Positions 4,676 through 29,431 of a stretch of DNA of 53,640 nucleotides are shown here, piece after piece. This DNA comes from a virus (taxonomy: Duplodnaviria; Caudoviricetes), in the IMG/VR virus record IMGVR_UViG_3300037962_000587, positions 1 to 53,640 of that record; one strand, written 5' to 3'. The notes beneath the pieces are model-generated. The model had not been told where the DNA came from. It did not search any database and saw only the letters and a program-made list of their open reading frames with translations. Numbering within the stretch: the stretch's first letter is position 1; each line of letters starts with the position of its first letter. The position numbers and the translations under genes are program-made.

Positions 4676-4676
4676 T

Positions 4677-6426: not shown

Positions 6427-6428
6427 TA

Positions 6429-8831: not shown

Positions 8832-8837
8832 AGAAAT

Positions 8838-10587: not shown

Positions 10588-10981
10588 AGTGAATACCTGC
10601 TATCCTTGTTGTTATTACTTTAAGGCCCATATCTTTAACTATGGACGATACTGTGTTTGTGTCTAACATAGACTTCTTTGTAAACAATACTTGGTTTGCT
10701 TCTTCTACGTTGACTTGATCTGCAACAATAGACCTTGCAAACAGCCTCATATCTGTCCCGCCTACTATTGCGGTGCCGCCAAGCCTAAGTTTCTGCCTAG
10801 CAGTCATAATAAATATCTTGGCTTGGTCATATCCCATAGAATCTAAAGCGTCTGTGGCTAATATAAAGGAGCATTCATTATCAGAGTACCCAGAAAGATT
10901 TGCGTCTCCATTCTCGGAGACTTCCACTCTCTCGTATCCCTCTATATGACCCTCGCTTCCGCTTACTACATGTATTTTCAC
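10550..10981 (-). CDS. Small methyltransferase-fold-like protein
   Basis: DNECSFILATDALD...QKLRLGGT resembles class I MTase motifs II/III; no clear motif I. Confidence 0.4.
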   Translation of the reverse strand: MKIHVVSGSEGHIEGYERVEVSENGDANLSGYSDNECSFILATDALDSMGYDQAKIFIMTARQKLRLGGTAIVGGTDMRLFARSIVADQVNVEEANQVLFTKKSMLDTNTVSSIVKDMGLKVITTRIAGIHYEVEAKREAPSN

Positions 10982-12970: not shown

Positions 12971-13131
12971 GAGCTTCCTCCTTTAAGATAATCGCCTACC
13001 CATATGTATGCTAAATTTGCTACAGCGTAACACAGGAACACTACAGCTAAGGCGTAGTTCTTTTTATACCATAAATCTATTGATACCACTAGGTATAATA
13101 AAAAGGCTAATACTAAAGCCCAGACACCCAT
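12967..13131 (-). CDS. 54-aa two-TM membrane protein (not in ORF track)
   Basis: Read by hand: MGVWALVLAFLLYLVVSIDLWYKKNYALAVVFLCYAVANLAYIWVGDYLKGGSS; TAATG overlap upstream and ATGA overlap downstream. Confidence 0.75.
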   Translation of the reverse strand: MGVWALVLAFLLYLVVSIDLWYKKNYALAVVFLCYAVANLAYIWVGDYLKGGSS

Positions 13132-15822: not shown

Positions 15823-15844
15823 TAACCAACTCCTCGATTGTTCA

Positions 15845-15982
15845 TCAACATCTTATTTTATTCCTAATGGTAATTACAAAATTCCACATAACAGGGTAGA
15901 CTAAAAATACTTCATTGTAGGCAAATATTATATATGAAAATACTATTGCAGATATAATTTTACCGGGAATTGTTGAGATCAT
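15845..15982 (-). CDS. Putative 45-aa membrane peptide
   Basis: MISTIPGKIISAIVFSYIIFAYNEVFLVYPVMWNFVITIRNKIRC fills the gap between two GT genes and is hydrophobic. Confidence 0.45.
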   Translation of the reverse strand: MISTIPGKIISAIVFSYIIFAYNEVFLVYPVMWNFVITIRNKIRC

Positions 15983-17630
15983 GCCTTCTTTGTTCCCACA
16001 TATTCCTCCTGTTGCAGAGGTTTGACATGTGGTTGTGGGCAATCTCAAGGTTGTATGGGTTTCTAACATTCTTACCCTCAAAAGCTGCCGAACTTTCGTT
16101 AAAGTACATACCTCCAGTTGTTTGCGTAGTACTGTGATACGTAAGGTCTCTAATCAGCCTAGATTCAAAGTATGTATTTAACCGCTCAGGCTCACAGAGA
16201 ACATCTGTTATTAACCATCTGCTCAACTGTGCTGGGGTGGCATTGTCTGGAACAGGATCTGGCATGGGCGCTGGGTTTTTAATCCTTGGAGGAGATTTCC
16301 AAGTCATCTCTTCGGGGATAATCTCAACGCTATCAAAATAGTTTTCCCACTTCTTTCCGCTGATATCCCACTGGTAGTACTTCTCAAAAGCCTGCCTACA
16401 GTTGAAGCCCATTTTCCTGCGAACACTCTTGGGTTGCTCAAAGAACTCTGAAAACTTTTGTGCCGCCAAGTCGTTGTCTGGAACTGCTCTCAAGCATCCC
16501 GTTTCCAGTTCCTTATATAAAGCCTTTGGTTTGATCGGAACCCCTCCCAGTTTCCTGAGAACGCTTTCCATGGCTGAGTAGTCTGTACCCATGACAGGCA
16601 CACCGCAAGCTGCTGCTTCAACCTGTGGAAGCCCAAACCCTTCGCAGTTTGCGTATTGTACATACACATCAAAAAGATTCATTATGGCAGCTAAGTCTTC
16701 GTATTCAACACCATTCTTTACGCTAGTGAGTGTAGAGCCAAACTGACCCGTAAAGGGTGACTGAGCTACTGCCCCTTTGAACAGGGACGGGAATGGTTTT
16801 CCTGTCTGTCTACATACATATGTAAACAATACGTGTGAGGAAAGCTCATACTCTTGTAGTAACTCTGGAATATCCCAACCCAAATCTGGGTAGCTTGTGT
16901 GGCAATACAGTTTATAGTTCTTGTCTTCCGAATTGTCTAAGAATTTCTTGAACGCCTCGAATAGGTCTGGGTAAAGCTTACGCCTCTGGTTGCGCATCAC
17001 AGTTCCAATAATTTTGGTATCTGGGTCGATGCCAACAGTGGCCTTGTGCGCGTCTTTATCTTCTACCGGAGCGTATGCTGGATGGGCAGAGGGTGGGGAA
17101 GATCCAAGGTAGTTAATTCTACCACCAGACTGATCCTCTAATACGCCACCGGCCCAATCAGAGTAAGTGAAGCAGGCGTCTGCTGAGCTGTATGTGGCTA
17201 TCCACTGACGAGCTTGGGGTCTAGCGTCAACCGTTGGCATAATAGCCCACCTAAAGAAACCTCTATAGGGGGATCTCTCAACAAAGTCGAGCATCCAAAA
17301 GTCTCGAATGTCGCAAACAACATCTGGCTTGAAATCTAAACACACATGCTCAAAGATGTGTTCGCCAAACTGCATCGTGGGGCTTGAGTTATACTGGTCG
17401 TGCTCCTCTTGCGTACCCTTTGGTTCGTTTTCCGTGTTTGGTTGCACACCGTAATACTTCCAAGGTAGAGAGAGTCCTCTGGGGTCGCTCCGTTCACCGT
17501 AACTAGCCAGCTCTGCTAGTTCATATTTACCTGTAGAATGCAGGTATTTAAGAGTTTCTCTGGCATATGTAGCGTATCCCGTATTCAGGAACGTAGCTTC
17601 GCTACAGAAGAGTATCCGTTTTTTTCGCAT
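15960..17630 (-). CDS. Large glycosyltransferase family 4 (GT-B) with C-terminal extension
   Basis: NTGYA, MRNQRRK and DVYVQYANCEGFGLPQVEAAACGVPV motifs. Confidence 0.88.
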   Translation of the reverse strand: MRKKRILFCSEATFLNTGYATYARETLKYLHSTGKYELAELASYGERSDPRGLSLPWKYYGVQPNTENEPKGTQEEHDQYNSSPTMQFGEHIFEHVCLDFKPDVVCDIRDFWMLDFVERSPYRGFFRWAIMPTVDARPQARQWIATYSSADACFTYSDWAGGVLEDQSGGRINYLGSSPPSAHPAYAPVEDKDAHKATVGIDPDTKIIGTVMRNQRRKLYPDLFEAFKKFLDNSEDKNYKLYCHTSYPDLGWDIPELLQEYELSSHVLFTYVCRQTGKPFPSLFKGAVAQSPFTGQFGSTLTSVKNGVEYEDLAAIMNLFDVYVQYANCEGFGLPQVEAAACGVPVMGTDYSAMESVLRKLGGVPIKPKALYKELETGCLRAVPDNDLAAQKFSEFFEQPKSVRRKMGFNCRQAFEKYYQWDISGKKWENYFDSVEIIPEEMTWKSPPRIKNPAPMPDPVPDNATPAQLSRWLITDVLCEPERLNTYFESRLIRDLTYHSTTQTTGGMYFNESSAAFEGKNVRNPYNLEIAHNHMSNLCNRRNMWEQRRHDLNNSR

Positions 17631-18039: not shown

Positions 18040-19632
18040 TTAAATTTCATATATTTTATCAACAATAAAAGAATTGTCGTTTCTTGCTACGGACCCGCAT
18101 AGCACTAGATTGTTGCCTTCATATAATATATACTTATGTTTATCTCTGGTGTCTGGAAATGCTATTACGCTGTCGAGTGAGCATGTGTCATCCTCTACCG
18201 TGAGAAACGCCATTTGCCTACCCTTTGAGTCACCTTTAGTTATACGGTAATCTGAAACCCTCTTGACGTGTACGCATATGCATAGGCCCGATCCAGTCTT
18301 GCCATTAACTATTTCCTTACACGTTGTGTTAGCTGCTGACGTGTCCGAACTCTCCACCTTAGACATACTTATGGGGCATCCAAGTAGTTTAGTTTCTTGG
18401 TCAATGACCCAGCCCGGATCGTCGTTTAGGTCGTAAGGAGGATTTTGCAGTAAGCTTAACTCATTGAGTATGAGTTGGCTTCTGTCTACACGATGTGTGC
18501 CGCCACCTTCCTTTTTTAAGGGTGCCAGATCTTTAAGGCAGTCTTCTAGAGTCTTCCATCTTTTCTTTGGGTAGTTCTCAACAACCCATTTGACTTCTGC
18601 CTTCGTCAGGGTTCTGTATATATTGTATTGATACAGAGCTTGGTTTCTGGTAATCTTATCGCTGAATCCTCTGAAGAATCCTACTGAGCAGAGGGCTTTG
18701 AATGCTGTAGAGTTTACAGTTGGCGAGAAATGTACAAGTATCTCCATCCAGCTCAAGTCTTTTAGCGGTTTTCCTAGATTGTCTTTCAGTGCCTGTACCG
18801 CCACAAGCACCTTGTCTCCAGTCTTTCCTGCGAGTGACTTGATATCTTTGATACCAAAGTAGATTTTACCATTTCTTATGTTGAATTTCTCAGCAAAGTT
18901 GGTGATGTTCGGAGCTTTGGTCTCTAGGTCAAATAGCTTGGCTTCGGATACAAGTTCGTATATCTCTTCATGCGGGTTCTGCTTCTCGTTGGCATAGTAC
19001 ATGTAGGATAGGAAGAACTCACTGGTGTTTGTGGCCTTGTAATATGCGCTCCAGTAAGAACACATTGCATAAGCAACAGCGTGTGACTTATTAAAAGAGT
19101 ATCTGGAGGACTTCTCAATCCAACTAAAGATTTCCTCAGCGACTTCGCTGGTAACTAACCCTTTACTTTCAGCGCCCTCTAGGAAAGACTTCTTTACTTG
19201 AGCCATGAGGCCAGCCTTCTTTTTACCGATAGCTTTTCGTAGAACATCTGCCTCTTGCAGATTGAAGCCAGCAATTTTCTGGGCTATACGCATGGATTGT
19301 TCTTGGTATACAAGCACTCCATAGGTTGGCTTAAGTATTTCCTCAAGAGACTCATCTAAATAAGTTACCTCTTCTATACCCCTCTTGCGATCAATGTACC
19401 TCTGGGTCATAGACTTACCGTCCTGAATAGCCTTTAAGCATCCGGGTCGGATGAGGGCTATCAATGCTGCTAGCTCCTCTATGTTTGTGGGCTTAAGCTT
19501 CTTCGACCAAGATCTACCTAGATTGCTCTCAAGCTGGAAAATTCCTTTTGTCTTTCCCTCACTAAAGAGACTCCAAGTTTCTGGAGAGTTATAGTCTATC
19601 CCAGCTCTTTCTTTAGATATAAGAGTTTCCAT
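18040..19632 (-). CDS. dnaE: DNA polymerase III alpha subunit, C-terminal half (fingers, HhH, OB)
   Basis: GIFQLES, ALIRPG, TYGVLVYQEQ, ADVLRKAIGKKK, YSFNKSHAVAY and MAFLTVED motifs; ATG at 19632 (or TTG 19638). Confidence 0.92.
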   Translation of the reverse strand: METLISKERAGIDYNSPETWSLFSEGKTKGIFQLESNLGRSWSKKLKPTNIEELAALIALIRPGCLKAIQDGKSMTQRYIDRKRGIEEVTYLDESLEEILKPTYGVLVYQEQSMRIAQKIAGFNLQEADVLRKAIGKKKAGLMAQVKKSFLEGAESKGLVTSEVAEEIFSWIEKSSRYSFNKSHAVAYAMCSYWSAYYKATNTSEFFLSYMYYANEKQNPHEEIYELVSEAKLFDLETKAPNITNFAEKFNIRNGKIYFGIKDIKSLAGKTGDKVLVAVQALKDNLGKPLKDLSWMEILVHFSPTVNSTAFKALCSVGFFRGFSDKITRNQALYQYNIYRTLTKAEVKWVVENYPKKRWKTLEDCLKDLAPLKKEGGGTHRVDRSQLILNELSLLQNPPYDLNDDPGWVIDQETKLLGCPISMSKVESSDTSAANTTCKEIVNGKTGSGLCICVHVKRVSDYRITKGDSKGRQMAFLTVEDDTCSLDSVIAFPDTRDKHKYILYEGNNLVLCGSVARNDNSFIVDKIYEI

Positions 19633-20290
19633 TTGCAAATGCCTTATCTAAGCTCAAATTTTGGTATACCGCTCTATGTGTTTTCATGAATTTAATCATG
19701 ATATTAGCAGTATCCTTAACATCCTGAAGCGCGTCATGCGCATTCTCCTTACTCATCCCCATCCTGTCACGAAGAGAATCCATGCTAATAGATCTGATAG
19801 ATGGGTCTCCCTCAGTCCACATGAATACATTATCCATAACATCTATTTTGAAGATAGGGTTAAACAGCTTTTGCTGACACCTGTCGTTATCATAAGGTCC
19901 GTACTCTTTACATAACCTGTTGATGATAACCATATCAAACCCAATGATATTAAACCCAGCAGGGATTGGGGCAAACCATGAGGTTCCCTTCCAGTTATGC
20001 TGCTCAACAAACTGCACAAACTTCTTCCACACAGACCTTATGGTAGGAGCTTTTTTCAGAGCCTCTCTGGTCTTGCCTGTGATGCGAAGAGCCTCGTCTT
20101 CAACAGGGTCTACCCCCGCTTCAATCGCCTTCTTCTCACTGAGAATTGGTCTAATCTCGCTGTTGAACGTACCCTTTAGGCGCAAGTTCCTGCCGTCTAA
20201 GGCTATGGCGGCTAGCTGGGTTGGTTGGGTTTTGTGTGGGTTTCTAGAACCGGTTTCAAAGTCAAATACAATTATGTCTTTATTAGACAT
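19613..20290 (-). CDS. dnaQ: DEDDh 3'-5' exonuclease (DnaQ/epsilon-like)
   Basis: ExoI VFDFETG, ExoII GFNIIGFD and ExoIII AHDALQDV; AGGAG RBS. Confidence 0.9.
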   Translation of the reverse strand: MSNKDIIVFDFETGSRNPHKTQPTQLAAIALDGRNLRLKGTFNSEIRPILSEKKAIEAGVDPVEDEALRITGKTREALKKAPTIRSVWKKFVQFVEQHNWKGTSWFAPIPAGFNIIGFDMVIINRLCKEYGPYDNDRCQQKLFNPIFKIDVMDNVFMWTEGDPSIRSISMDSLRDRMGMSKENAHDALQDVKDTANIMIKFMKTHRAVYQNLSLDKAFANGNSYI

Positions 20291-20316
20291 TTCAAAGTCT
20301 CCTGTTAGTTACAAAA

Positions 20317-21960
20317 TTAGGTTTGGTTTATGAGATCCTTAACTTTCATGATCTTATCGAGAAGGTTGATACCAAGAACGTCGAATTTAACGTGGCCCAA
20401 GCTTTCTAGATCAGACATTTCCAGACCCGCTAATTTTTCATCCTTGTTCCTTTGTTTAACCATGGGGCATACCAACTTAAGCTTGTCTCTGGAAATAACT
20501 ACGCCTGCTGGATGCTTACCCTGCGACTTGAAGGTTCCCTCCATTCTGATTGCTTGGTCAAAGAACTCTGCATAGTCTCCATCTAGGTCTCCGTTGTCGT
20601 TTATGAAACAGAAATCTCTGAGTTCTTCTGGGTTGTTGATTAGTGCCCAACGAATGATAGATCTATCTTCTTCATCCATCTCTTGCAGTTGGTCTGAGAT
20701 GTCTGCCTCGTTGGGGAGGCTCTTGGTGATCTCGTTCATCTCTCCAAATGAGCATGCCTCGTTTATTCTAAGAACTTCCTTCAGCGCGCTACGCCCCTGT
20801 AGTCTTCCAAAGGTAATCATTTGACTAACATTCTCATGTCCGTACTTGTCTTTTAGGTAATCTATGATTTCGTCTCTCTTCTTTCCGGGTACGTCTATGT
20901 CAATGTCGGGAAGCGAGATATGACCTTCTGTATTTCTTCCGCTGTTGTAGAACCTTTCAAATAGAAGATCGTATTCGATGGGATCAATCTTAGTGATCCC
21001 CATTAGATAAGATATTAGACATCCGGCTGCTGACCCTCTACCCGGACCAGAAAGCCATCCCTCGCTGTTTACGAAGCGTATTATATCCCACACAATAAGA
21101 AAGTATCCGAAGAGGTTGGCATCTTTAATGACACCTAGTTCTTCACGAAACCTTTCAGCGTAGTGAGCTTCGGATTCCTCAGAGTCTAACTTGCCAGAGT
21201 CAAGCAAGTCCCGTTTCCAACCCTCTCGGCAAAGACTCTTCAGTAGATCTTCCTCGGTTTCGCCTGTAGGTATTGGAAACTCCGGCAGCATAGGTTTACT
21301 GAGTATATCATACTCTTCACATTTCTCAACTATTTCTATGACGGAATTTATCTGTTCATCTGAACATTCGTCTAATAGTATTTCTGTCACCTCACGTCTA
21401 TCCGGCAAGTGAAAAGTTTCATGACCGAAGAACTTCTCGAATGCTGGGTCGAAATCGCCAGACTTCAGGCTTTTCTTCGCCTTTGGGAGGGTTGTCTTCA
21501 GGTGTGAACACAGTAGCACTCTATGCAGAGGAGCATCCCCTTTGTCGCAGTAGTAAGTTGGACTTAGTGCTGGGGATGTAACATAGGAGTCTTTGCCTAG
21601 AATGGGGTAATACTTATCCGCTATGCAGATAAGATTTCCCTCTTGAAAGACTTTGTAAGAAAGCTCTGATGGGATGTTGCCATCTTCATCAAGCAGTGAC
21701 ACTATCTCGATTAAGTTCAGCCAGCCGTCTTTATTCTTGGCAATCAATGTATAGTTGTCAAAGGAACAACCAATAATCGGCTTGATATTGTGCTTCTTGC
21801 AGGCCTGATAGAAAGACACTGCTCCTGAGATAGATTTATAATCGGCTATACCGCAAGCCTTGTACCCGTTTTCTGAGCACTTCTTTGCGAGCTGTTCTGG
21901 TTTAGAGAAACCTTTTAGTAAACTATAATGCGTATAGTTATGAATGGGGGACCATTCCAT
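20317..21960 (-). CDS. dnaE: DNA polymerase III alpha subunit, N-terminal half (degenerate PHP, palm, thumb)
   Basis: YSLLxG, IKPIIG, GPGRGSAAG, LLFERF, PDIDID, HPAGVVIS and KFDVLG motifs; ATG 21960 (or TTG 21981). Confidence 0.92.
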   Translation of the reverse strand: MEWSPIHNYTHYSLLKGFSKPEQLAKKCSENGYKACGIADYKSISGAVSFYQACKKHNIKPIIGCSFDNYTLIAKNKDGWLNLIEIVSLLDEDGNIPSELSYKVFQEGNLICIADKYYPILGKDSYVTSPALSPTYYCDKGDAPLHRVLLCSHLKTTLPKAKKSLKSGDFDPAFEKFFGHETFHLPDRREVTEILLDECSDEQINSVIEIVEKCEEYDILSKPMLPEFPIPTGETEEDLLKSLCREGWKRDLLDSGKLDSEESEAHYAERFREELGVIKDANLFGYFLIVWDIIRFVNSEGWLSGPGRGSAAGCLISYLMGITKIDPIEYDLLFERFYNSGRNTEGHISLPDIDIDVPGKKRDEIIDYLKDKYGHENVSQMITFGRLQGRSALKEVLRINEACSFGEMNEITKSLPNEADISDQLQEMDEEDRSIIRWALINNPEELRDFCFINDNGDLDGDYAEFFDQAIRMEGTFKSQGKHPAGVVISRDKLKLVCPMVKQRNKDEKLAGLEMSDLESLGHVKFDVLGINLLDKIMKVKDLINQT

Positions 21961-22000
21961 TTGCAACTTTTCCTTTTTCAAATCATTTTGTCCTCACTCT

Positions 22001-22031: not shown

Positions 22032-22352
22032 TTATTTTGCGAGAGTTACGCTTTCTCTCTGAGTTTCTGACTCTCTGCGTTTGTTTGCTCGGCACCCTTC
22101 GCACATTTCTATGTGATTCCCTGCGTGCATACCATGTATGTGCTCAAGACCAAGAACTCTTTCCATTAGAATGGTTCTCTCCTGATGCCCCTGAAAGTGC
22201 ATGGCATTAAGTTGTGACATGATGCCCATCTCTACATCTGAAGGGTCTTCTGTCTGGTGCCTGATGTGATCAATTGTGCGCAAGTTCAGTCCTATATTTG
22301 TACCAAGAGCAGCAAGGACGATAATTGCAAACCATGTTTTTACTGATTTCAT
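22032..22352 (-). CDS. Membrane-anchored/secreted His-Cys-rich hypothetical protein
   Basis: Hydrophobic N-terminus; EHIHGMHAGNHIEMCEGC. Confidence 0.6.
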   Translation of the reverse strand: MKSVKTWFAIIVLAALGTNIGLNLRTIDHIRHQTEDPSDVEMGIMSQLNAMHFQGHQERTILMERVLGLEHIHGMHAGNHIEMCEGCRANKRRESETQRESVTLAK

Positions 22353-22365
22353 GGCTATTTCTCCA

Positions 22366-23577
22366 TTAGAATAATTGGTTGATTACACGTCCTGAGTTTG
22401 CTATCCTCATTGGTCTTCCGTTATTGCTTGTGAATGTAGTGTTCAGGGATATACCTAAGCATTGACATACAGAAGCCATAATGTCCTGTGAATTATACGG
22501 GTGAGTCTCTACTGTTGTTCCATTCTTGTCAGTCTCACCTATTGCTAAGCCGCCATTGATGCCCCCACCGCCCAGAGCCACGCTCCAGCTTCTTGCCCAG
22601 TGGTCTCTACCGGTATTCTGGTTGATTCTGGGGGTTCTACTAAACTCCCCCATCCATAGAACAACTGTATCTTCTAGCATGCCCCTCTGTTCTAAATCTT
22701 CAAACAAAGCGCTCATGGCTCTGTCCAGTATAGGGAGCTTGTTATCACGTAGTGTACTGAAAATATTCTGGTGATTATCCCAGCCGCCAAAGCCAACCTC
22801 TATAAATGGAACTCCAGCCTCTACAAGTCTCCTAGCCATTAGACAACCCTTACCAAAGCTGTTGTCTCCGTACCTTTCAAGAACTTCGCTAGGCTCCTGA
22901 GAAACTTTTAGAGCGTCCATCTGTTGACTGGTAAGTACATCAAACGCTTTCCTCAATACCTTCTGATGCTCTTTTGGTAGAGACCCTCTATTGGAATTGA
23001 TGAAATTATTTTCTATGAGGTCTAGAGTGTACATCCTTTGGTAGAATCTTTCGTCTACTTTTATATCTAGATTTCTGACCCTACCATCACTGTTTACAAC
23101 AAAGGGGGAATATTGAGAACCCAAGAACCCAGCTCCAACGCTAGCTCCGTTCACTGAAATGAACTGAGGAATCTTAAGGTCGTCTCTCTGAATCTGTTTA
23201 GATATTACTGACCCATAGCTTGGGTGTTCTATGCGTGGATTGGGAACGTAACCTGTATGCATGTAATATCTACCACGCATGTGGTCAGCTTCGCGTGTAC
23301 TCATGCTTCTAACTACAGATACATTATGCATCTGCTTGGCCATCATAGGCATGTGTTCGCATATCTGCAAATCGCCAGTGGTGGATATGGGCCTGAAAGG
23401 ACCGCCGGTTGTTGCTCCGGGCTTTAAGTCCCAGATGTCCATAGTAGAAGGACCACCGCCCATCCATAGCAGGATGGCAGACTTCCTCTTCTTTTTAATC
23501 TCCTCAGACCTAGCTTCCAGTATGTCCACAAAGGGAAGCGAGGCAAGTCCTGAAACAAATCCACGTCTAGAAATCAT
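22366..23577 (-). CDS. DUF1501 family protein with twin-arginine signal (copy 4)
   Basis: SRRGFV, LLWMGGGPSTMDIWDLKP, ARRLVEAGV, GGWDNH and GEFSRTPRIN...GRDHW. Confidence 0.9.
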   Translation of the reverse strand: MISRRGFVSGLASLPFVDILEARSEEIKKKRKSAILLWMGGGPSTMDIWDLKPGATTGGPFRPISTTGDLQICEHMPMMAKQMHNVSVVRSMSTREADHMRGRYYMHTGYVPNPRIEHPSYGSVISKQIQRDDLKIPQFISVNGASVGAGFLGSQYSPFVVNSDGRVRNLDIKVDERFYQRMYTLDLIENNFINSNRGSLPKEHQKVLRKAFDVLTSQQMDALKVSQEPSEVLERYGDNSFGKGCLMARRLVEAGVPFIEVGFGGWDNHQNIFSTLRDNKLPILDRAMSALFEDLEQRGMLEDTVVLWMGEFSRTPRINQNTGRDHWARSWSVALGGGGINGGLAIGETDKNGTTVETHPYNSQDIMASVCQCLGISLNTTFTSNNGRPMRIANSGRVINQLF

Positions 23578-23942
23578 GCTTCGTCAGCCCTACCTTTATA
23601 AACTAGAGAAACCCCGTCCTTCTTGTAGTTGCCCATTCTGCGGTAGGTAAAAACCTCACCAGTTCTAGGGTTTTCGTATTTGAATGCAGCTTCTGCACTA
23701 TGCTCTTCGTACCAATCTTGAAATTCTTTCATGTCTTTACCCGGCATATATAGAGTCACACCGTCGCCACTCTTGTGGGAGTGACTGCCGGAAAGACCAA
23801 TTTTTTTAGCCATCTTCTCGGCTTCTTCCTTTGATGTGAATACATAGTCCTCCATTGAGCCAGCTTCGTGTGACTTACTCTTATGTTTTTGGACATGATC
23901 CTCTATAGCATCAAGGTATTTTTGCTTTTTGTTAGGTCTCAT
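23574..23942 (-). CDS. Small modular phage protein (DUF3721-like module)
   Basis: FTSKEEAEKMAKKIGLSGSHSH...YMPG resembles the EAE..A..IGC.G.H...MPC module. Confidence 0.5.
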   Translation of the reverse strand: MRPNKKQKYLDAIEDHVQKHKSKSHEAGSMEDYVFTSKEEAEKMAKKIGLSGSHSHKSGDGVTLYMPGKDMKEFQDWYEEHSAEAAFKYENPRTGEVFTYRRMGNYKKDGVSLVYKGRADEA

Positions 23943-23972
23943 TGGTGTTGTAACCTTCCTGCTGTTATATTT

Positions 23973-25259
23973 TTAACTGACAAGTTCCTTGATTGGCTCT
24001 CTGTGATCCAATAGGTACTGAGGCCTTCCGGTTCTGTCTAATAAAGTGGTTGACATTGTGTCAATACCAAGGGCGCGATACATTGTGGAACACACTTCTT
24101 GGATATGTACAGGTCTTGATTCTGGAACTTCACCAAGCCTGTTTGTTTCTCCAATGACTTGCCCGTGTTTAAATCCTCCTCCGGCGAGAAGGGCGCATGA
24201 TACTTGAGGCCAGTGGTCTCGTCCACCGCCCTTGTTGATCTTAGGTGTTCTTCCAAACTCTCCCCAAACAACAACCAGTGTGTCGTCTAACATTCCACGG
24301 TTGTCAAGATCTGTTACTAGGGCTGAAACGCATTGGTCTAGCTTTGCACCATGATCTCTTACGAGGTCGAAGTTTGATCCGTGGCTATCCCAGCGACCAT
24401 AAGATAACGTAACAGACCTAGCGCCAGCTTCAACAAGCCTGCGGGCCATGAGGACATGCTCATTAACAGTGGGTGCGCCGTCATACTGAAATTTAAAAGG
24501 CTTTCCATCGCCATACATTTCCCTTATCTTTGAGCTTTCTTTGGAGATATCTAAGGCATCAACTAAAGCGCTTGATGTTAATACCCCAAAAGCTTCTTCT
24601 GTGAATGTATCGGCAGCTATTGACTTATCTATAGCTTCCCTTACTCCAGAAAAACCGGCGAGTAAATCTTTGCGGCTTCTAAATCTATCTACGTCAAGGT
24701 TAAGCTTGAGATCTTTCATCATTTCGCCGTTGGGCTTGAAGGGTTTGTGAGTTTCCCCTAAGTATCCAGCTCCTCCAGCTTCAGACCAAGGTCCGTGCTG
24801 AGTCTTGTCTGCTAAGCCAACAGCTACTGGCACAGCGGGATCAACTGGGCCTAAAATTTTAGATGCACATGCCCCAATAGCCGGATAGCTTGTACCAGAA
24901 ACCATCTCTTTTCTGCTCCAGCCAGTAACACATTGGTGTCCATCATGACTACCATCAGATCCAACTATAGATCTAATGGCTGTAAACTTATCAAACATAG
25001 ACGCAATCTTAGGAAAGCATTCTCCTATCTGAATCCCGTTTACGGCGGTTGAGATTGGCTTGAAAGGCCCTCTTATCTCTGATGGAGCTTTTGTTTTAAT
25101 ATCCCACATGTCTTGATGTGGTGGGCCTCCACCTAGAAAGATGTTAATCACGGCTTTGTGTGATGTTCCCAGTCTATCTTGCGCATACATAAGTTGAGGC
25201 ATTGATAACATGCCAAGACCACCAACTGTCAAAAAGCTTCTTCGGGACAAGGTTAGCAT
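23973..25259 (-). CDS. DUF1501 family protein with twin-arginine signal (copy 3)
   Basis: LSRRSFL, FLGGGPPHQDMWDIK, IRGPFKPIST, ARRLVEAG, WDSH and GEFGRTPKIN...GRDHWP. Confidence 0.9.
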   Translation of the reverse strand: MLTLSRRSFLTVGGLGMLSMPQLMYAQDRLGTSHKAVINIFLGGGPPHQDMWDIKTKAPSEIRGPFKPISTAVNGIQIGECFPKIASMFDKFTAIRSIVGSDGSHDGHQCVTGWSRKEMVSGTSYPAIGACASKILGPVDPAVPVAVGLADKTQHGPWSEAGGAGYLGETHKPFKPNGEMMKDLKLNLDVDRFRSRKDLLAGFSGVREAIDKSIAADTFTEEAFGVLTSSALVDALDISKESSKIREMYGDGKPFKFQYDGAPTVNEHVLMARRLVEAGARSVTLSYGRWDSHGSNFDLVRDHGAKLDQCVSALVTDLDNRGMLDDTLVVVWGEFGRTPKINKGGGRDHWPQVSCALLAGGGFKHGQVIGETNRLGEVPESRPVHIQEVCSTMYRALGIDTMSTTLLDRTGRPQYLLDHREPIKELVS

Positions 25260-25272
25260 GGTTATATTCCTT

Positions 25273-26574
25273 TTATATAATTAAATCTTCTATGACTTTT
25301 CCACCGTCCACAATCTCTATCGGTCTGTCACCGGGAGCCATTAACTCCTTGTCGGAAACTATACCAAGTCTGTCGTAAATGGTAGATGCCCAGTCTTCTA
25401 TGTTGACTGGGTTTTCTTCTGGCTCACTAGCGGTTGCGTTGGATGTACCGTATGTCATCCCGCCTTTAATTCCACCGCCAGCAATAATTGTGCTGAATAC
25501 TTTAGGCCAATGGTCTCTGCCAGCATTGGCGTTGATCTTTGGAGTTCGTCCAAACTCAGAAACAACACATACTAATGTGGAGTCAAGCATACCTCTATCG
25601 CTTAAGTCCTCTATAAGTGTCGAGAAACCCTTGTCAAAAGCTGGCAACTGGCTCCTCATGCTTCCTGCTATATTGTTGTGCATGTCCCAGCCACCATACG
25701 TTAAGGTTACAAATCTAGTGCCAGCCTCTACTAATCTTCTTGCTAGTATCATTCTGGCTCCAGCGGTATTTCTTCCGTACTTGTCTCGCAACTGATCTGG
25801 TTCTTTATTGAGATCAAACGCCTCACTAGCTTTGACATCACCTATCAGGCTGTACGCTCTTTGGTAGAATGAGTTGACCGCATCAATAGAGTCTGCGGAT
25901 TGCTTAGAGTTAAAGTCTGTATTAACTATATCAAGAACTCTTTGCCTACGGCTGAATCTCGGGGCAGGCACTGGAGTCTTTAAATCACGGACTTGGAAAT
26001 TTGAGCTAGCTGGATCAGAGCCTAAACCGAAACCTGCGTAAGAGCTACTTAGGTAGCCTGTGCCAGCATATTCGTTTGGCTGATTAGGTATGCATACATA
26101 CGGTGGAAGGTTATGCCTAGGCCCGAACTCATGTGAGACAACGGAACCCATAGATGGGTACTGAAGTGCTGGGCTGGGGCGATAACCCGTGAACATGTTG
26201 TGTGTTCCACGCTCATGAGCAGCTTCTCCATGAGTCATGCTGCGGATAATTGATATCTTATCAGCAACCTTAGATGTATTAACAAGCAGCTCGCCAAGCC
26301 TAGTGCCGGGAACGTTAGTTTCAATACTACCTAAAGGTCCACGATACTCAAGGGGCGCAAACGGTTTTGGGTCTAGCGTCTCTTGGTGAGCCATTCCTCC
26401 GGGCAAGTATATAAAGATTACACTCTTGGCTGGCCCCTCCTTGCTTTCGTAAAACTTTTGGTCAGCCTGAGCTTGCTCCATACGGAAGTAATCCGATAGA
26501 GTCAAGCCTAAGCCGCCTAGAAATCCAACGTTCAGAAAAGATCTGCGCCCAATATTATTTCCTTTACAATTCAT
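25273..26574 (-). CDS. DUF1501 family protein with twin-arginine signal (copy 2)
   Basis: GRRSFL...AQA, YLPGGMAHQETLDPKP, ARRLVEAG, GGWDMH and SEFGRTPKIN...GRDHWP; start at ATG 26574 after GAGG. Confidence 0.9.
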   Translation of the reverse strand: MNCKGNNIGRRSFLNVGFLGGLGLTLSDYFRMEQAQADQKFYESKEGPAKSVIFIYLPGGMAHQETLDPKPFAPLEYRGPLGSIETNVPGTRLGELLVNTSKVADKISIIRSMTHGEAAHERGTHNMFTGYRPSPALQYPSMGSVVSHEFGPRHNLPPYVCIPNQPNEYAGTGYLSSSYAGFGLGSDPASSNFQVRDLKTPVPAPRFSRRQRVLDIVNTDFNSKQSADSIDAVNSFYQRAYSLIGDVKASEAFDLNKEPDQLRDKYGRNTAGARMILARRLVEAGTRFVTLTYGGWDMHNNIAGSMRSQLPAFDKGFSTLIEDLSDRGMLDSTLVCVVSEFGRTPKINANAGRDHWPKVFSTIIAGGGIKGGMTYGTSNATASEPEENPVNIEDWASTIYDRLGIVSDKELMAPGDRPIEIVDGGKVIEDLII

Positions 26575-26585
26575 GATCTTCCTCT

Positions 26586-27128
26586 TTACCATTTTTTGCA
26601 AGACCAGTATCGAGCTTTCCATTTTGGTCCCGGAGTGTCACATCTGTGCCTAGCTCTGAAACTTTTACGTCTAGCAGGATCGTCTCTTTTAATTTCCATG
26701 TTAGGGTCGCCAAAGTTTACCTTGACTACATTACCCTTTTCATTTTTAACATAAACAGAAAACTTCTTTGGGCCATCAGGAGTCCTAAAAGGCTTATTAA
26801 GTTTTACTTTTCTACCTTGGTACTCAGAGCCTTTAGATTTATCATCATCTTTAGGTTTTTGAGCTTTCTTCCAAGACTTTGGATCTGGTCGATCAGGATC
26901 TCCCCGTTTAGCGGGCTTGTAATCGTCACCTTCCCTCTCCTTTTTCTTTCTGATGTTTTCCCAAAGTCCCGGCTTTGCTTCCGCAATATCCCAGTCTTCA
27001 GTATCTTCACCAAAATCCTCATAGTCTGCTTCCGCAGGTATTACAAAGTTATCTTCAGTAATTTCTTCTGTGTATCCACCTTCAGCACAAAATTGATTTA
27101 GGTGTTCTACATATTCTTCTTTTCTCAT
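26586..27128 (-). CDS. Modular phage protein with C-terminal DUF6321-like domain
   Basis: Acidic N-terminus, KPGLWENIRKK module, and EYQGRKVKLNKPF...FGDP...RRKSFRARHRC...RYWSC. Confidence 0.65.
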   Translation of the reverse strand: MRKEEYVEHLNQFCAEGGYTEEITEDNFVIPAEADYEDFGEDTEDWDIAEAKPGLWENIRKKKEREGDDYKPAKRGDPDRPDPKSWKKAQKPKDDDKSKGSEYQGRKVKLNKPFRTPDGPKKFSVYVKNEKGNVVKVNFGDPNMEIKRDDPARRKSFRARHRCDTPGPKWKARYWSCKKW

Positions 27129-28378
27129 AGGATTACCTTTCCTTCTCCCTCTAATAGGTATCTAGGCCTTCCGCCTTGATCTGTCCTCTGGATTCCCTTC
27201 GGAATACCGAAGTGATCAAACATCGTGGCCGCTAAATCAATAGGTGCTACCTTAGACTCTGTTGGGTAATAAGCCTTGTCTGATTTGCCGATAACCCTAC
27301 CATGGCTATACTTACCTCCTGATAGTAGCATGGGGGTGATAGATGGCCAATGGTCTCTGCCAGCATTCTGGTTCAGTCTAGTTCTACCAAACTCCCCGGT
27401 TACAACTAGCAAGACCTTTTCAGACAGTCCACTTTGATAGATGTCTTGCACAAATGCTGCAAGAGCTTTGTCGAGTGGTGGAACCCTACCTTCAAGAGCC
27501 TTCTTGATATTTCCGTGCATGTCCCAGCCACCGTAGTGAACTGTTACAAACTTGGTTCCGAATTGAGCCAGCCTTCTAGCCAGTAGCATCTGATCACCAA
27601 TGCCACCCTTGCCATACATTTCACGCATAGATTCTGGCTCTTTGTCTAGGTCAAAAGCTTCTTTAGCATTTCCTAAAATAACGTTATAGGCTTGGTTGCC
27701 AATCTTAGTAAATGAGGAAGCTTGAGCAGAAGCGTTTGGATCAAACAAGTCAAATGCAGCGAGTAAGTCTTTACGCTCCTTGAATCTACCAACTTCAATC
27801 CTAGGCGTGAGGTTATCCTTATTGGACGGATCAAACGGCTTGTGCGCTCCACCTAAAAATGCAGGTTGCTCGCCCTCAATCTTGCCTTGCTTGACATATG
27901 CTGGCATGCCGTTTGTTGGATGGTTGGAGCCAAAAACTGCTGACACAACAGCACCGTGTCCGGGATACTCAGAGTTTGCAGTGTTCTCCCTCTTGGGGTT
28001 ATGATGCCCTGTCATCATCCAGTGAGTTGCTTGGCGATGCGAGGAATCTCCGTGTGAGAAGGAGTTTATTGCAGTGAGGTTGTCCCCTTGCTTGATTAGC
28101 TCTTGAAACAAGCCTCCAAAGGCAAGACCATTAGTATGGGTTACGGGGGAAGTTACCGGCTTGTATGGGTCTGGAACTGATTCAGTTGGGGCGTGGAAGG
28201 TTTCAAACTGTGTCGGGCCACCTCCAAGCCAAACCCATACCACTGACTTGTCGTTGGAGCCAACATTCAAGTCTTCTTCTTGCGAAAAAGCAATGTCGGA
28301 AAAGGGGGTCATTCCTAATCCTGCGCCAATACCACCCACTCTAAGAAAATCTCTTCTGTTGAAACCTAGATCCAGCAT
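27125..28378 (-). CDS. DUF1501 family protein with twin-arginine signal (copy 1)
   Basis: NRRDFL, WLGGGPTQFETF, ARRL, GGWDMH and GEFGRT...GRDHWP; AGGAG RBS. Confidence 0.9.
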   Translation of the reverse strand: MLDLGFNRRDFLRVGGIGAGLGMTPFSDIAFSQEEDLNVGSNDKSVVWVWLGGGPTQFETFHAPTESVPDPYKPVTSPVTHTNGLAFGGLFQELIKQGDNLTAINSFSHGDSSHRQATHWMMTGHHNPKRENTANSEYPGHGAVVSAVFGSNHPTNGMPAYVKQGKIEGEQPAFLGGAHKPFDPSNKDNLTPRIEVGRFKERKDLLAAFDLFDPNASAQASSFTKIGNQAYNVILGNAKEAFDLDKEPESMREMYGKGGIGDQMLLARRLAQFGTKFVTVHYGGWDMHGNIKKALEGRVPPLDKALAAFVQDIYQSGLSEKVLLVVTGEFGRTRLNQNAGRDHWPSITPMLLSGGKYSHGRVIGKSDKAYYPTESKVAPIDLAATMFDHFGIPKGIQRTDQGGRPRYLLEGEGKVIL

Positions 28379-28408: not shown

Positions 28409-29431
28409 TTAACCCGGAGCGTTATAATAACCTATACTAAATCCTTCTTTAGTACATTCTTTTACGGTCTTCTCCATACCGTGTTTCTTAAGGTGCTCCT
28501 CTATATATATACACATATTCTTGTCTGAACCCTCCCAGTTATTTTTATAATAATGGCAGAGCTTTGTACACTTCCAGTGTTCCCTCCTTGTGGACAGTGG
28601 TCTGGGGGTGTTGTTTCTTTTAATTGACTCGAAAGTTTCTCTGAGCATCTCTTTGAACTTTGCCCTGTCCTTACTATCAAAGCACATAGAGAATGGCCCG
28701 CCATCTTTTATGTAAAAAATAGTCATTATGGACTGTTCGTACTCTGGAAAAAGCTTGGATATAGCATAATTATACAGGAGCAACTGCGGATCTTTACAAA
28801 GCTTTTCGTAAGTCTTCTCTTCCCCAGTGGCCCAATCAAGTCTACGTCCAGTTTTCCAGTCGATGACCTCTATTATACCATCTTCCGCTTCAGTTACAAG
28901 GTCTATCGTGCCCTTTATGGCAAGATTTCCTTTGATTATCTCACCATTAGGCATCTCGTACTCATACTTGGCCCAGTCTTCATCTATCTCTATGTCAAAA
29001 TGAGGCTCTGAAGCCACTACGTTTCTAGTTCTTGGGTCAAACTGCCCATCATTATATTCAAATACCACCCACACTAAGTCTAAGCAGTTCTTTCTGTCCT
29101 TGTCTGTAAATTTATTCTTGGAGTTTTTGATATAATAATCAAAGCTACGGTCCAACAATTCAACCACAAAGAAGTCGTCCATAAACTTATCTTTATGTAT
29201 TTTAACTTCCCCTAGGGCATCATCATCTGACTTGAGGAATTTTCTTTGGGGGTTATCTTGCTTGAACTTTTTTAGGTCTGCAAGTACCTCCATTACTTTA
29301 TGAACTATGGTTCCTAGTTCTGCCTTCTTTCCGCTATCGGTTTGATAGCCAAGTACATATGTCAGAAAATACTGCATCTGACAAAATGAATAATTATTAT
29401 AACTCGAACTTCTTATGTAGGTGACTAACAT
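28409..29431 (-). CDS. PD-(D/E)xK nuclease, Cas4/AddB-like exonuclease
   Basis: GTIVHKVME, KGTIDLV, VIDWKTG and QLLLY motifs; one N-terminal and three C-terminal Cys (Fe-S staple). Confidence 0.85.
   Translation of the reverse strand: MLVTYIRSSSYNNYSFCQMQYFLTYVLGYQTDSGKKAELGTIVHKVMEVLADLKKFKQDNPQRKFLKSDDDALGEVKIHKDKFMDDFFVVELLDRSFDYYIKNSKNKFTDKDRKNCLDLVWVVFEYNDGQFDPRTRNVVASEPHFDIEIDEDWAKYEYEMPNGEIIKGNLAIKGTIDLVTEAEDGIIEVIDWKTGRRLDWATGEEKTYEKLCKDPQLLLYNYAISKLFPEYEQSIMTIFYIKDGGPFSMCFDSKDRAKFKEMLRETFESIKRNNTPRPLSTRREHWKCTKLCHYYKNNWEGSDKNMCIYIEEHLKKHGMEKTVKECTKEGFSIGYYNAPG

What the first reader, a model, noticed from the sequence alone, without database searches (positions are those of the whole stretch)
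22032..28378. Phage-encoded cassette of four divergent Tat-exported DUF1501 proteins
Seen: four ~400-435 aa paralogs (27125-28378, 25273-26574, 23973-25259, 22366-23577). Each starts with a twin-arginine motif (NRRDFL, GRRSFL, SRRSFL, SRRGFV) and keeps GG(P/M), ARRL, WDxH and EF(G/S)RT...GRDHW. They are clearly divergent from each other, so this is not a recent tandem duplication. They sit between the Cas4-like nuclease and dnaE, interleaved with phage-type small genes and coupled to them by ATGA overlaps. Known: DUF1501 is a function-unknown family with an alkaline-phosphatase/sulfatase-like core, strongly expanded in Planctomycetota and usually paired with DUF1549/DUF1553 genes. No such partner is present in this window. 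Inference: the virus keeps a set of several host subfamilies and sends them through the host Tat pathway. They could act as periplasmic auxiliary enzymes, as a hetero-oligomer, or as decoys that hijack host DUF1553 partners. I know of no described phage system of this kind, and it is the best candidate here for a new system.
Basis: partly seen in the sequence, partly recalled or inferred. Interest (0 to 1): 0.88.

Follow-up and report, generated by a model that had tools for sequence, protein, structure and literature searches.

The report
Phage cassette of partner-less DUF1501 enzymes
A widespread group of large uncultured marine phages, probably infecting Planctomycetota, carries one to four exported enzyme genes of unknown function (DUF1501) copied from host modules without the hosts' cytochrome-like partner genes, which marks this mysterious host system as something phages need during infection.

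Summary
Four ORFs (27125-28378, 25273-26574, 23973-25259, 22366-23577, all minus strand) are full-length PF07394 (DUF1501) proteins with twin-arginine signals and are only 29-35% identical to each other. The record is a genuine phage fragment. Relatives of 139-184 kb (two rated 100% complete, one with terminal repeats) carry a terminase, and contigs from three independent studies bridge both cassette junctions. The cassette recurs across about 150 IMG/VR loci under strong purifying selection (median dN/dS 0.03-0.06). D2, D3 and D4 are orthologs (59-77% identity) of three distinct conserved Pirellulales/PVC modules. In cells each sits beside a DUF1549/DUF1553 (PSCyt2/PSD1) heme-motif partner; the five long phage genomes tested have none. 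D1 belongs to a virus-associated clade with altered conserved residues. A single phage-internal origin is rejected (AU p 1.8e-5). The fold is alkaline-phosphatase superfamily, nearest NPP/PafA. A complex model supports docking of phage D4 on the host partner (0.78 against control 0.01). Best reading: auxiliary genes supplying exchangeable catalytic subunits to host periplasmic modules. The chemistry is unknown. No print report was found.

The parts
27125..28378 (-). D1: DUF1501 protein, 417 aa, Tat motif NRRDFL. Virus-associated subfamily with derived residues at family-conserved sites.
   Evidence: PF07394 E 5.7e-66. D68->H in 55 of 55 orthologs, R111->N in 54 of 55, and P345 deleted. Best cellular identity is 44% in five PVC genomes. 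120 listed orthologs lie on contigs of at most 140 kb, and none is named Planctomycetota. dN/dS 0.056.
26586..27128 (-). 180-aa small phage gene (C-terminal domain phrog_7595, unknown function). Mobile insert inside the cassette, not a functional partner.
   Evidence: phrog_7595 E 1.7e-14. A contig in run X7 joins 26464 to 27127 without it, and depth is in excess over 26619-27019. It is often present in two copies in related loci. ATGA overlap with the D1 stop.
25273..26574 (-). D2: DUF1501 protein, 433 aa, Tat motif GRRSFL. Ortholog of the DUF1501 subunit of the conserved PVC four-gene module.
   Evidence: PF07394 E 6.5e-111. 50-77% identity to about 39 of 80 GTDB loci, mostly Planctomycetota. 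Cellular neighbours are a PPC protein, a Big_2-PSCyt2-PSD1 protein and a PSCyt1-WD40 protein. AF2 model pLDDT 91.3. dN/dS 0.050.
23973..25259 (-). D3: DUF1501 protein, 428 aa, Tat motif SRRSFL. Variably present in related phages.
   Evidence: PF07394 E 2.5e-83. 59-61% identity to Pirellulales genes that lie next to Big_2-PSCyt2-PSD1 proteins. Nearest clusters are Tautonia, Pirellulales and Blastopirellula. dN/dS 0.034.
23574..23942 (-). 122-aa small gene with sub-threshold DUF3721 and DUF7659 matches. Function unknown.
   Evidence: Pfam matches below cut-off. No PHROG match. ATGA overlap with the D4 start. Found in few related loci.
22366..23577 (-). D4: DUF1501 protein, 403 aa, Tat motif SRRGFV. 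Ortholog of a single-copy Pirellulales module.
   Evidence: PF07394 E 5.2e-106. 62-69% identity to one gene in each of four Pirellulales genomes, with the next paralog at 41%. Host neighbours are a PSCyt2-PSD1 protein upstream and an ECF sigma factor downstream. Complex model with the host partner scores 0.78 against 0.01 for controls. dN/dS 0.035.
22032..22352 (-). 106-aa His-rich protein with an N-terminal hydrophobic segment. Possibly membrane-anchored or periplasmic; role unknown.
   Evidence: Hydrophobic stretch at residues 4-24. No Pfam or PHROG family. Found in L001 (93%) and L210 (42%) only.
28409..29431 (-). Upstream flank: Cas4-like PD-(D/E)XK nuclease of the phage replication module.
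   Evidence: PF12705 E 2.5e-22. Synteny kept in related phages.
20317..21981 (-). Downstream flank: N-terminal half of a split DnaE (PHP and Pol III alpha domains).
   Evidence: PF07733 E 9.7e-70 and PF02811 E 8.7e-20. Synteny kept in related phages.

Best explanation
This is an auxiliary-gene cassette of a lineage of large (about 140-185 kb) uncultured marine phages whose hosts are most likely Pirellulales (Planctomycetota). The phages captured the Tat-exported DUF1501 subunit of three different conserved host periplasmic modules (D2, D3, D4). They also keep a virus-evolved fourth type (D1). They did not capture the hosts' large cytochrome-c-motif partners (PSCyt2/PSD1, i.e. DUF1549/DUF1553). 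Proposed mechanism: the genes are expressed with the replication module. The folded proteins are exported by the host Tat system. In the periplasm each docks on its pre-existing host partner, supplementing or replacing the host's own subunit. DUF1501 is an alkaline-phosphatase-superfamily metalloenzyme nearest to two-metal NPP/PafA phosphoesterases, so the process being sustained is most likely cleavage of phospho- or sulfo-ester substrates in the cell envelope. Shown here: family membership, phage context, lineage-wide conservation, purifying selection, separate host origins and absence of partners. Inferred: Tat export (motifs only), docking (model only), timing of expression, the chemistry and the benefit to the phage.
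For: Family and signals. Phage nature: replication genes; Terminase_6N in 4 of 5 long relatives, two rated 100% complete, one with terminal repeats. No chimera: contigs of X2, X3 and X7 bridge DnaE to D4, and contigs of X2 and X3 bridge D1 to Cas4. Spread: 77 loci found with D2 and 80 with P0004. Among 154 loci, D1 is in 110, D2 in 100, D4 in 62 and D3 in 35. Selection: median dN/dS 0.034-0.056. Median identity to the window is D2 77%, D3 86% and D4 73%, against primase 48%, dNMP kinase 54% and Cas4 65%. Host origin: D2 50-77% in Planctomycetota and Verrucomicrobiota; D3 59-61% and D4 62-69% in Pirellulales; viral clades nest in cellular ones. One phage-only clade is rejected (delta lnL 1118, p-AU 1.8e-5). 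Partners: cellular D2 orthologs have module neighbours in 12 of 13 loci, D4 orthologs in 4 of 4 and D3 orthologs in 3 of 3. PSD1 and PSCyt2 are each found in 0 of 5 long phage records, against 5 of 5 PVC genomes for PSD1. Docking: ipSAE 0.78 (runs 0.79, 0.77, 0.78) against a best control of 0.01; at least 85% of contacts agree between runs; partner pLDDT at least 88. The mark was reached by 58 of 80 solved complexes and 2 of 110 mismatched pairs, and these counts hold only roughly because own alignments were used. No solved relative of either chain exists. Host-matched D2 types: L066 groups with Verrucomicrobiota and L059 with Stieleria-type Pirellulaceae. TatC is found in 2 of 2 hosts and 0 of 3 phages. 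Fold: ENPP6 Z 19.7 (rmsd 3.0, 244 aligned), PafA Z 19.4, sulfatases Z 16-17.7. D2-D4 keep nearly all 59 family-conserved positions.
Against: No experiment bears on any step. The predicted D4 interface residues are less conserved between phage and host D4 (50-60%) than the rest of the protein (65-72%), so there is no sign of selection to keep the interface. The complex pass may only show that D4-type DUF1501 proteins bind this partner in general, because the phage copy is 67-69% identical to the host's own. D1, the most constant member, has no identified host module. It also has changed putative active-site residues, which the replacement model does not explain. The host assignment rests on gene phylogeny alone: no tRNA is present and no CRISPR or prophage link was sought. 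Fold similarity does not fix the substrate, and a heme-motif partner does not fit a plain phosphatase. Foldseek TM-scores to solved structures are low (0.3-0.45).
Confidence: 0.5

Rival explanations
1. Stand-alone nutrient-scavenging enzymes. The phage DUF1501 proteins act on their own in the periplasm as phosphoesterases (or sulfatases). They release phosphate or sulfate for phage DNA synthesis, as Pho-regulon auxiliary genes of marine phages do, and need no host partner.
For: The nearest folds are the NPP and PafA phosphoesterases (Z 19.3-19.7). D2-D4 keep nearly all family-conserved residues. The cassette lies inside the nucleotide and replication module beside dNMP kinase, RNR and DnaE. 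No partner is found in the phage genomes. That marine phages carry Pho-regulon genes is recalled knowledge, not a call.
Against: In cells, the inspected orthologs of D2, D3 and D4 are nearly always adjacent to a PSCyt2/PSD1 gene, and a complex is confidently modelled. Keeping up to four different subfamilies, and host-matched D2 types in different phages, is hard to explain for a generic phosphatase. No NCBIfam or PDB sequence relative with known activity exists.
Confidence: 0.2
2. Takeover or decoy. The phage copies, above all the virus-specific D1 with altered conserved residues, occupy host PSCyt2/PSD1 proteins. This blocks or rewires a host envelope system. One candidate target is the ECF-sigma-linked module beside the host D4 ortholog. 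Possible outcomes are suppression of an envelope stress or defence response, or exclusion of superinfecting phages.
For: D1 replaces D68, R111 and other family-conserved residues in 54-55 of 55 orthologs, yet it is under purifying selection. D1 or D1b is present in 18 of 21 Cas4-DnaE intervals. The host D4 module in G009 includes an ECF sigma factor followed by a second PSCyt2-PSD1 protein. Docking on the partner is supported in silico.
Against: D2-D4 keep essentially all putative catalytic residues, which suggests activity and not mere binding. D1's binding to any partner was not tested. The ECF sigma factor was Pfam-confirmed in one genome only.
Confidence: 0.2
3. Not a phage feature: a cellular fragment, a mis-assembled chimera, or recently captured passenger genes without function.
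For: IMG/VR rates the record linear and 34% complete. The window holds no structural gene. DUF1501 is absent from PHROGs and, apart from one weak partial hit, from 50,697 deposited phage records.
Against: Near-complete relatives carry both a terminase and the cassette. Independent assemblies bridge both junctions. There are about 150 viral loci. dN/dS is 0.03-0.06. Cellular orthologs lie in quite different, phage-free contexts.
Confidence: 0.03

Closest known systems
PVC DUF1501 / PSCyt / PSD gene modules (Kamneva et al. 2012, PMC3542564; passages read)
   Same: D2 is an ortholog of the DUF1501 member of that paper's 'most complex' four-gene cluster: Tat-DUF1501, a PPC protein, a PSCyt1/Big_2/PSCyt2/PSD1 protein and a PSCyt1/WD40 protein. 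D3 and D4 are orthologs of DUF1501 members of two-gene DUF1501 + PSCyt2/PSD1 modules.
   Different: The phage has only the DUF1501 halves, gathered side by side from different modules, plus a virus-specific type (D1). The function of the cellular modules is itself unknown.
Subunit-replacement auxiliary genes of cyanophages (psbA/psbD; recalled, no call)
   Same: A phage carries host-derived copies of the exchangeable core subunit of a multi-protein host machine and relies on the host for the rest. The copies are under purifying selection and track the host lineage.
   Different: The family, compartment (periplasm through Tat) and chemistry are different, several modules are targeted at once, and replacement has not been shown here.
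NPP / PafA two-metal phosphoesterases and S1 sulfatases (alkaline-phosphatase superfamily)
   Same: Same core fold: ENPP6 Z 19.7, ENPP7 Z 19.5, PafA Z 19.4, sulfatases Z 16-17.7. Conserved D-x-H and D-H pairs resemble the metal ligands of NPPs; that resemblance is recalled, and residue-level superposition was not available.
   Different: Sequence identity is only 10-17% and there is no significant sequence match to any solved chain. The canonical Asp after strand 1 and the Ser/Thr/formylglycine nucleophile could not be identified. An invariant His (H120 in D2) lies where motif spacing would place the nucleophile; this is inference only.
Phage Pho-regulon auxiliary genes (pstS, phoA, phoH; recalled, no call)
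   Same: Marine phages carry periplasmic or phosphate-related host genes next to DNA-metabolism genes.
   Different: No sequence relationship, and DUF1501 has no demonstrated phosphatase activity.

Membership tests
Pfam PF07394 (DUF1501) | Full-length match above the gathering score (27 bits) | tested here: met
   224-372 bits, covering profile positions 1-2 to 386-390 of 390, for all four proteins (six-frame search).
Pfam PF07394 (DUF1501) | Family-wide conserved residues (59 positions conserved in at least 85% of 150 representatives) | tested here: met
   D2, D3 and D4 keep nearly all of them. D1 departs at D68, K70, P71, T86, G90, R111 and P345.
Tat (twin-arginine) substrates | N-terminal S/T-R-R-x-F-L-type motif followed by a mildly hydrophobic h-region | tested here: met
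   NRRDFL, GRRSFL, SRRSFL and SRRGFV with Gly-rich h-regions. RR is conserved in 98-99% of family representatives.
Tat (twin-arginine) substrates | Actual export by TatABC | not testable with these tools
   Only the presence of TatC could be checked: found in 2 of 2 candidate host genomes and 0 of 3 phage genomes.
Alkaline-phosphatase superfamily | Core alpha/beta fold shared with AP, NPP and sulfatases | tested here: met
   AF2 model pLDDT 91.3. VIA-align Z 19.7-14.6 over 227-277 aligned residues to 50 superfamily entries. Foldseek probability 1.00, TM 0.3-0.45.
Alkaline-phosphatase superfamily | Identified metal ligands and catalytic nucleophile | tested here: inconclusive
   The invariant D297-x-H299, D354-H355 and H120 are candidates. 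No coordinates or residue-level superposition were available.
PVC DUF1501 + PSCyt2/PSD1 module | DUF1501 gene adjacent to a DUF1549/DUF1553 gene | tested here: not met
   There is none in the window. PSD1 and PSCyt2 are each found in 0 of 5 long phage records, with a positive control of 5 of 5 PVC genomes for PSD1. The phage genes are orthologs of module members but do not form a module.
Viral auxiliary metabolic gene (AMG) | Flanked by viral genes on both sides on a verified viral genome | tested here: met
Viral auxiliary metabolic gene (AMG) | Host-derived, conserved in a viral lineage, under purifying selection | tested here: met
   D1 has no identified host source.
Viral auxiliary metabolic gene (AMG) | Known metabolic function that is expressed during infection | not testable with these tools
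   The function of the family is unknown. No usable RNA holder was found.

The most novel reading that the evidence does not exclude
DUF1501 is the exchangeable, Tat-delivered catalytic subunit of heme-protein (PSCyt2/PSD1) complexes that form a PVC-specific periplasmic system. These phages exploit that modularity. They inject their own subunits into several host complexes at once, and they have evolved a phage-only subunit (D1) with a remodelled active site that reprogrammes or disables a host complex. One candidate target is an ECF-sigma-linked sensor. This would be a new mode of phage takeover of the cell envelope, and the first functional handle on a gene system with roughly 60-105 candidate copies per planctomycete genome.
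Probability: 0.2. Interest if true: 0.85.

Novelty: new variant of a known kind. Interest (0 to 1): 0.68.

Why it matters
DUF1501/PSCyt/PSD modules are among the largest unexplained gene families of Planctomycetota and Verrucomicrobiota. The first-look search found 60-105 DUF1501 candidates per Pirellulales genome, and two papers state that their function is unknown. Phages keep only genes that pay during infection. They repeatedly retain three particular orthogroups out of this many paralogs, matched to the host lineage and without partners. That singles out which modules matter and suggests that DUF1501 is the limiting or labile subunit. It also gives a testable structural hypothesis: DUF1501's helical insert binds the conserved C-terminus of PSD1. 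In addition, the finding defines a large, globally recurring and so far uncultured phage lineage with probable Planctomycetota hosts, and a phage-specific DUF1501 clade. If the enzymes release phosphate or sulfate from marine organic matter, the cassette would also bear on viral effects on nutrient cycling.

Tried and rejected
- **Deposited phage genomes:** tblastn with D2 gave one weak partial hit (24% coverage, 32.5% identity, Ralstonia phage) in 50,697 records. DnaE has no relative above 30% identity there, so there is no cultured relative.
- **tRNA:** none in the window.
- **PDB by sequence:** nothing significant for D2, the DUF1501 profile or the partner profile.
- **NCBIfam and PHROGs:** 0 of 4 DUF1501 proteins matched in NCBIfam and 0 of 4 in PHROGs.
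- **D1 against Planctomycetota:** D1 against 301 Planctomycetota genomes at E <= 1e-110 gave 0 matches, but only about 6 candidates per genome were scored and nothing rang, so this shows little. It was replaced.
- **Interface conservation:** the test for extra conservation of the predicted D4 interface was negative.
- **Expression:** no RNA holder was listed. The one metatranscriptome laid (X21) gave only pieces of 21-106 bases, two of them exact in the D1 5' region. That cannot separate RNA from carried-over DNA.
- **Chimera or cellular-fragment reading:** rejected.
- **Recent tandem duplication:** rejected.
- **The 180-aa gene as a functional partner:** rejected. It is absent in a natural variant and has excess depth.
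- **Literature:** 'DUF1501' with 'phage' gave 2 papers, both irrelevant (passage read). 'DUF1501' alone gave 12 papers. DUF1553/DUF1549/PSCyt2/'PSD1 domain' gave 5 papers. 'Planctomycetota' with 'phage' and 'auxiliary metabolic genes' gave 66 papers, of which 15 titles and abstract openings were seen and none is on this subject. Supplementary figures S13/S14 of PMC3542564 (the DUF1501 tree) could not be seen and might already place some of these subfamilies.

Full report
OBSERVATION. The region 22032-28378 holds seven minus-strand ORFs. Four of them are end-to-end members of Pfam PF07394 (DUF1501): D1 27125-28378, D2 25273-26574, D3 23973-25259 and D4 22366-23577, with E-values of 5.7e-66 to 6.5e-111. 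A six-frame family search confirms them. They are 29-35% identical pairwise. Each begins with a twin-arginine motif followed by a glycine-rich, mildly hydrophobic stretch. The two ATGA overlaps with small genes are real. GC content across the cassette (0.44-0.45) lies within the range of the surrounding window.

IS IT A PHAGE? The window is an IMG/VR record rated 34% complete. All large ORFs are on one strand. The neighbours are a phage replication and nucleotide module: ribonucleotide reductase, UvsX-like recombinase, DnaB, primase, dNMP kinase, a Cas4-like nuclease and a split DnaE. The window holds no structural gene, so I looked at relatives.
- A scan of IMG/VR with D2 returned 77 distinct loci at 55-96% identity, plus one at 33%.
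- Five long records were checked: 166.8, 145.0, 138.5, 158.5 and 184.5 kb, rated 100, 94, 88, 100 and 94% complete, one with direct terminal repeats.
- All five hold 2-4 DUF1501 genes clustered in one region, and four of the five hold a Terminase_6N gene.
- Near-identical DNA occurs in 20 runs from 10 studies of marine or estuary metagenomes.
- Contigs from three different studies bridge the DnaE-D4 side (X2, X3, X7), and two bridge the D1-Cas4 side (X2, X3).

The chimera and cellular-fragment readings are therefore rejected.

CONSERVATION AND SELECTION. The order D1-D2-(D3)-D4 recurs in two genomic contexts: between Cas4 and DnaE, as here, and next to a distant UvsX-like gene in another group of contigs. 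Among 21 distinct Cas4-to-DnaE intervals the content is:
- D1-D2-D3-D4 in 4
- D1-D2-D4 in 4
- D1 alone in 4
- D2-D4 in 3
- D1-D4 in 3
- a D1-like type (D1b) alone in 2
- D1-D3 in 1

Over 154 viral loci, D1 occurs in 110, D2 in 100, D4 in 62, D3 in 35 and D1b in 22. Some contigs are represented by two loci, and many loci are truncated. Median identity to the window is D2 77%, D3 86%, D4 73% and D1 59%, against primase 48%, dNMP kinase 54%, Cas4 65% and DnaE-N 64.5% in the same set of loci. Nei-Gojobori dN/dS for pairs with dS 0.1-1.5 has medians of 0.056 (D1, 88 pairs), 0.050 (D2, 162), 0.034 (D3, 24) and 0.035 (D4, 57). Those values are like the replication genes (0.01-0.085, from 1-6 pairs each).

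ORIGINS. A profile of the four copies found 34,963 clusters at E <= 0.001 in 1.84 billion representatives. In trees built with the best 150 representatives, the four phage groups fall in four separate, well-supported places.

D2:
- A scan of GTDB species genomes returned 80 loci. About 39 have 50-77% identity to D2.
- Almost all of those are Planctomycetota (Pirellulaceae, Planctomycetaceae, Gemmataceae, and the isolate Stieleria sedimenti at 64%). A few are Verrucomicrobiota at 57-63%.
- These cellular loci have no phage genes and no adjacent D1, D3 or D4 ortholog.

In five named PVC genomes:
- D4 has one clear ortholog in each of the four Pirellulales genomes (69, 65, 62 and 63%), with the next paralog at 41%.
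- D3 reaches 61, 61, 59 and 54%.
- D1 reaches only 44% in one genome and 35-39% in the others.

In trees with named sequences:
- The main viral D2 clade includes the D2 ortholog of a Pirellulaceae MAG (G009) with support 99.
- Viral D4 is sister to G009's ortholog inside a Pirellulales clade (100 in the IQ-TREE run).
- Viral D3 groups with Pirellulales genes (99).
- Two other phages carry D2 types that group elsewhere: L066 with Verrucomicrobiota (97) and L059 with Stieleria-type Pirellulaceae (81).

Forcing all phage copies into one clade costs 1118 log-likelihood units (p-AU 1.8e-5).

D1 is different:
- Its nearest representative, P0004, is itself viral. It occurs at 51-98% identity on about two dozen further IMG/VR contigs, and in L183 it is the only DUF1501 gene between Cas4 and DnaE.
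- A search of 5.8 billion proteins listed 120 D1 relatives at 59-100% identity. None is named Planctomycetota. One is named as a Pacearchaeota MAG on a 10-kb contig. The longest contig is 139,888 bases.
- By contrast, relatives of the host partner protein lie on contigs of up to 389 kb and are named Pirellulaceae or Planctomycetaceae.

PARTNERS.
- Cellular D2 orthologs head a conserved operon in 12 of 13 loci inspected. In the two loci scanned with Pfam it encodes a PPC-domain protein, a Big_2-PSCyt2-PSD1 protein and a PSCyt1-WD40 protein. This is the four-gene cluster described in PMC3542564 (passages read).
- D4 orthologs are preceded by a 575-602-aa PSCyt2-PSD1 protein in 4 of 4 genomes (Pfam-confirmed in one). 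In G009 they are followed by an ECF sigma factor and a second PSCyt2-PSD1 protein.
- D3 orthologs lie next to PSCyt2-PSD1 proteins in 3 of 3 genomes.
- The alignment of 46 D4-type partners has an invariant C-x-x-C-H motif.
- The five long phage records have no PSD1 and no PSCyt2. The PSD1 search finds 9-74 copies in each of five PVC genomes.
- TatC is present in 2 of 2 host genomes tested and absent from 3 of 3 phage genomes tested.

STRUCTURE.
- An AlphaFold2 model of D2 is confident (pLDDT 91.3, pTM 0.88).
- Foldseek finds only remote alkaline-phosphatase-superfamily matches (E about 1e-6, TM 0.3-0.45).
- The full VIA-align scan ranks NPP-type phosphodiesterases and PafA first: ENPP6 Z 19.7 (rmsd 3.0, 244 aligned), ENPP7 19.5, PafA 19.4, Xanthomonas NPP 19.3 and ENPP4 19.3. 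S1 sulfatases follow at Z 16-17.7.
- Of 59 positions conserved in at least 85% of 150 family representatives, D2, D3 and D4 keep nearly all.
- D1 has D68->H (55 of 55 orthologs), R111->N (54 of 55), T86->D (45 of 55), G90->N (48 of 55) and a deletion at P345 (55 of 55).
- The catalytic residues cannot be assigned without coordinates.

DOCKING TEST. Mature phage D4 (residues 31-403) and the G009 PSCyt2-PSD1 partner (residues 41-580) were folded together with alignments.
- The score was 0.78 (runs 0.79, 0.77, 0.78) against a best control of 0.01.
- At least 85% of contacts agree between runs, and the partner's pLDDT is at least 88.
- The mark was reached by 58 of 80 solved complexes and 2 of 110 mismatched pairs. 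These counts hold only roughly, because own alignments were used.
- The interface joins D4 residues 114-215 (mostly the helical insert) to partner residues 360-580, including its conserved C-terminus.
- Neither family has a solved relative, so the pass is not a recalled complex.
- The pass may still reflect only the likeness of phage D4 to the host's own subunit. The interface residues are not better conserved between phage and host (50-60%) than the rest of the protein (65-72%).

INTERPRETATION. The best-supported reading is an auxiliary-gene cassette. Phages of Pirellulales-like hosts, and some of Verrucomicrobiota-like hosts, repeatedly took up the Tat-exported DUF1501 subunit of specific conserved host modules. 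They keep these copies under strong selection and rely on the host for export and for the heme-motif partners. I put 0.5 on this subunit-supply model, 0.2 on stand-alone scavenging enzymes, 0.2 on a decoy or takeover role (most plausible for D1) and 0.03 on an artefact. The chemistry remains open. The fold favours phospho- or sulfo-ester cleavage, and the heme-motif partner hints at something more complex.

NOVELTY. No paper in the searchable library links DUF1501 to phages. PHROGs and NCBIfam have no model that matches these proteins. Host-derived auxiliary genes are a known kind. New here are the family, the gathering of partner-less subunits from several modules, and a phage-specific clade with a remodelled conserved site.

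Noticed in passing
window 18040-21981: The DnaE polymerase is split into an N-terminal half (20317-21981: PHP and Pol III alpha domains) and a C-terminal half (18040-19638: phrog_405 positions 625-1066). A 225-aa ORF (19613-20290) lies between them; from its sequence it looks like a DnaQ-type exonuclease, but this was not scanned. The arrangement is conserved in related phages (Exo 68-99% identity).
   Followed up: partly
window 33-17630 and 45901-47777: There is a large glycan-biosynthesis island. It includes NeuB (3219-4034), a UDP-GlcNAc 2-epimerase (5392-6426), a cytidylyltransferase-like gene (4016-4726), a sulfotransferase (686-1246), a PhyH-type dioxygenase (2548-3222), several glycosyltransferases and a UDP-glucose dehydrogenase-like gene (46959-47777). 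This suggests the phage makes or modifies a nonulosonic-acid-containing, possibly sulfated, glycan. A link to the sulfatase-like DUF1501 cassette is conceivable but untested.
   Followed up: partly
window 26586-27128: The 180-aa gene (C-terminal domain phrog_7595) behaves like a small mobile element. It is often duplicated in related loci, is missing from a natural variant (joint 26464 to 27127 in run X7), and shows 2- to 17-fold excess contig depth in metagenomes.
   Followed up: partly
window 22032-22352: A 106-aa protein with an N-terminal hydrophobic segment and a His- and Cys-rich tail lies directly downstream of D4. It could be a metal-handling helper for the exported metalloenzymes. It was found only in the closest relatives.
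   Followed up: no
L066 11275-12636; L065 5753-7117; also L061, L063, L064: A fifth, very divergent phage DUF1501 type (29-30% identity to D2 or D4, long branch) sits next to the D2 ortholog in a separate group of phages. One of these is a 184-kb record whose D2 groups with Verrucomicrobiota.
   Followed up: partly
L173 7371-13262 (G009), with the same arrangement in L174 and L176: The host D4-type module reads PSCyt2-PSD1, DUF1501, ECF sigma factor, then a second PSCyt2-PSD1 protein. This hints that some DUF1501/PSD modules feed an extracytoplasmic-function sigma signalling pathway. The D4-type partner alignment has an invariant CxxCH motif.
   Followed up: partly
L089 (contig labelled Alcaligenaceae MAG); protein P0393 (labelled Candidatus Pacearchaeota): Both taxonomic labels look like binning errors. 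L089 carries the complete PVC-type four-gene module, with a D2 ortholog at 65-66% identity. P0393 is a D1 ortholog (65%) on a 10-kb contig.
   Followed up: no
L078 (G009 contig of 327 kb): The D2 ortholog of this Pirellulaceae MAG sits inside the main viral D2 clade (support 99), yet it lies in the normal cellular four-gene module. Either this lineage is the donor, or a phage copy has replaced the host gene.
   Followed up: partly
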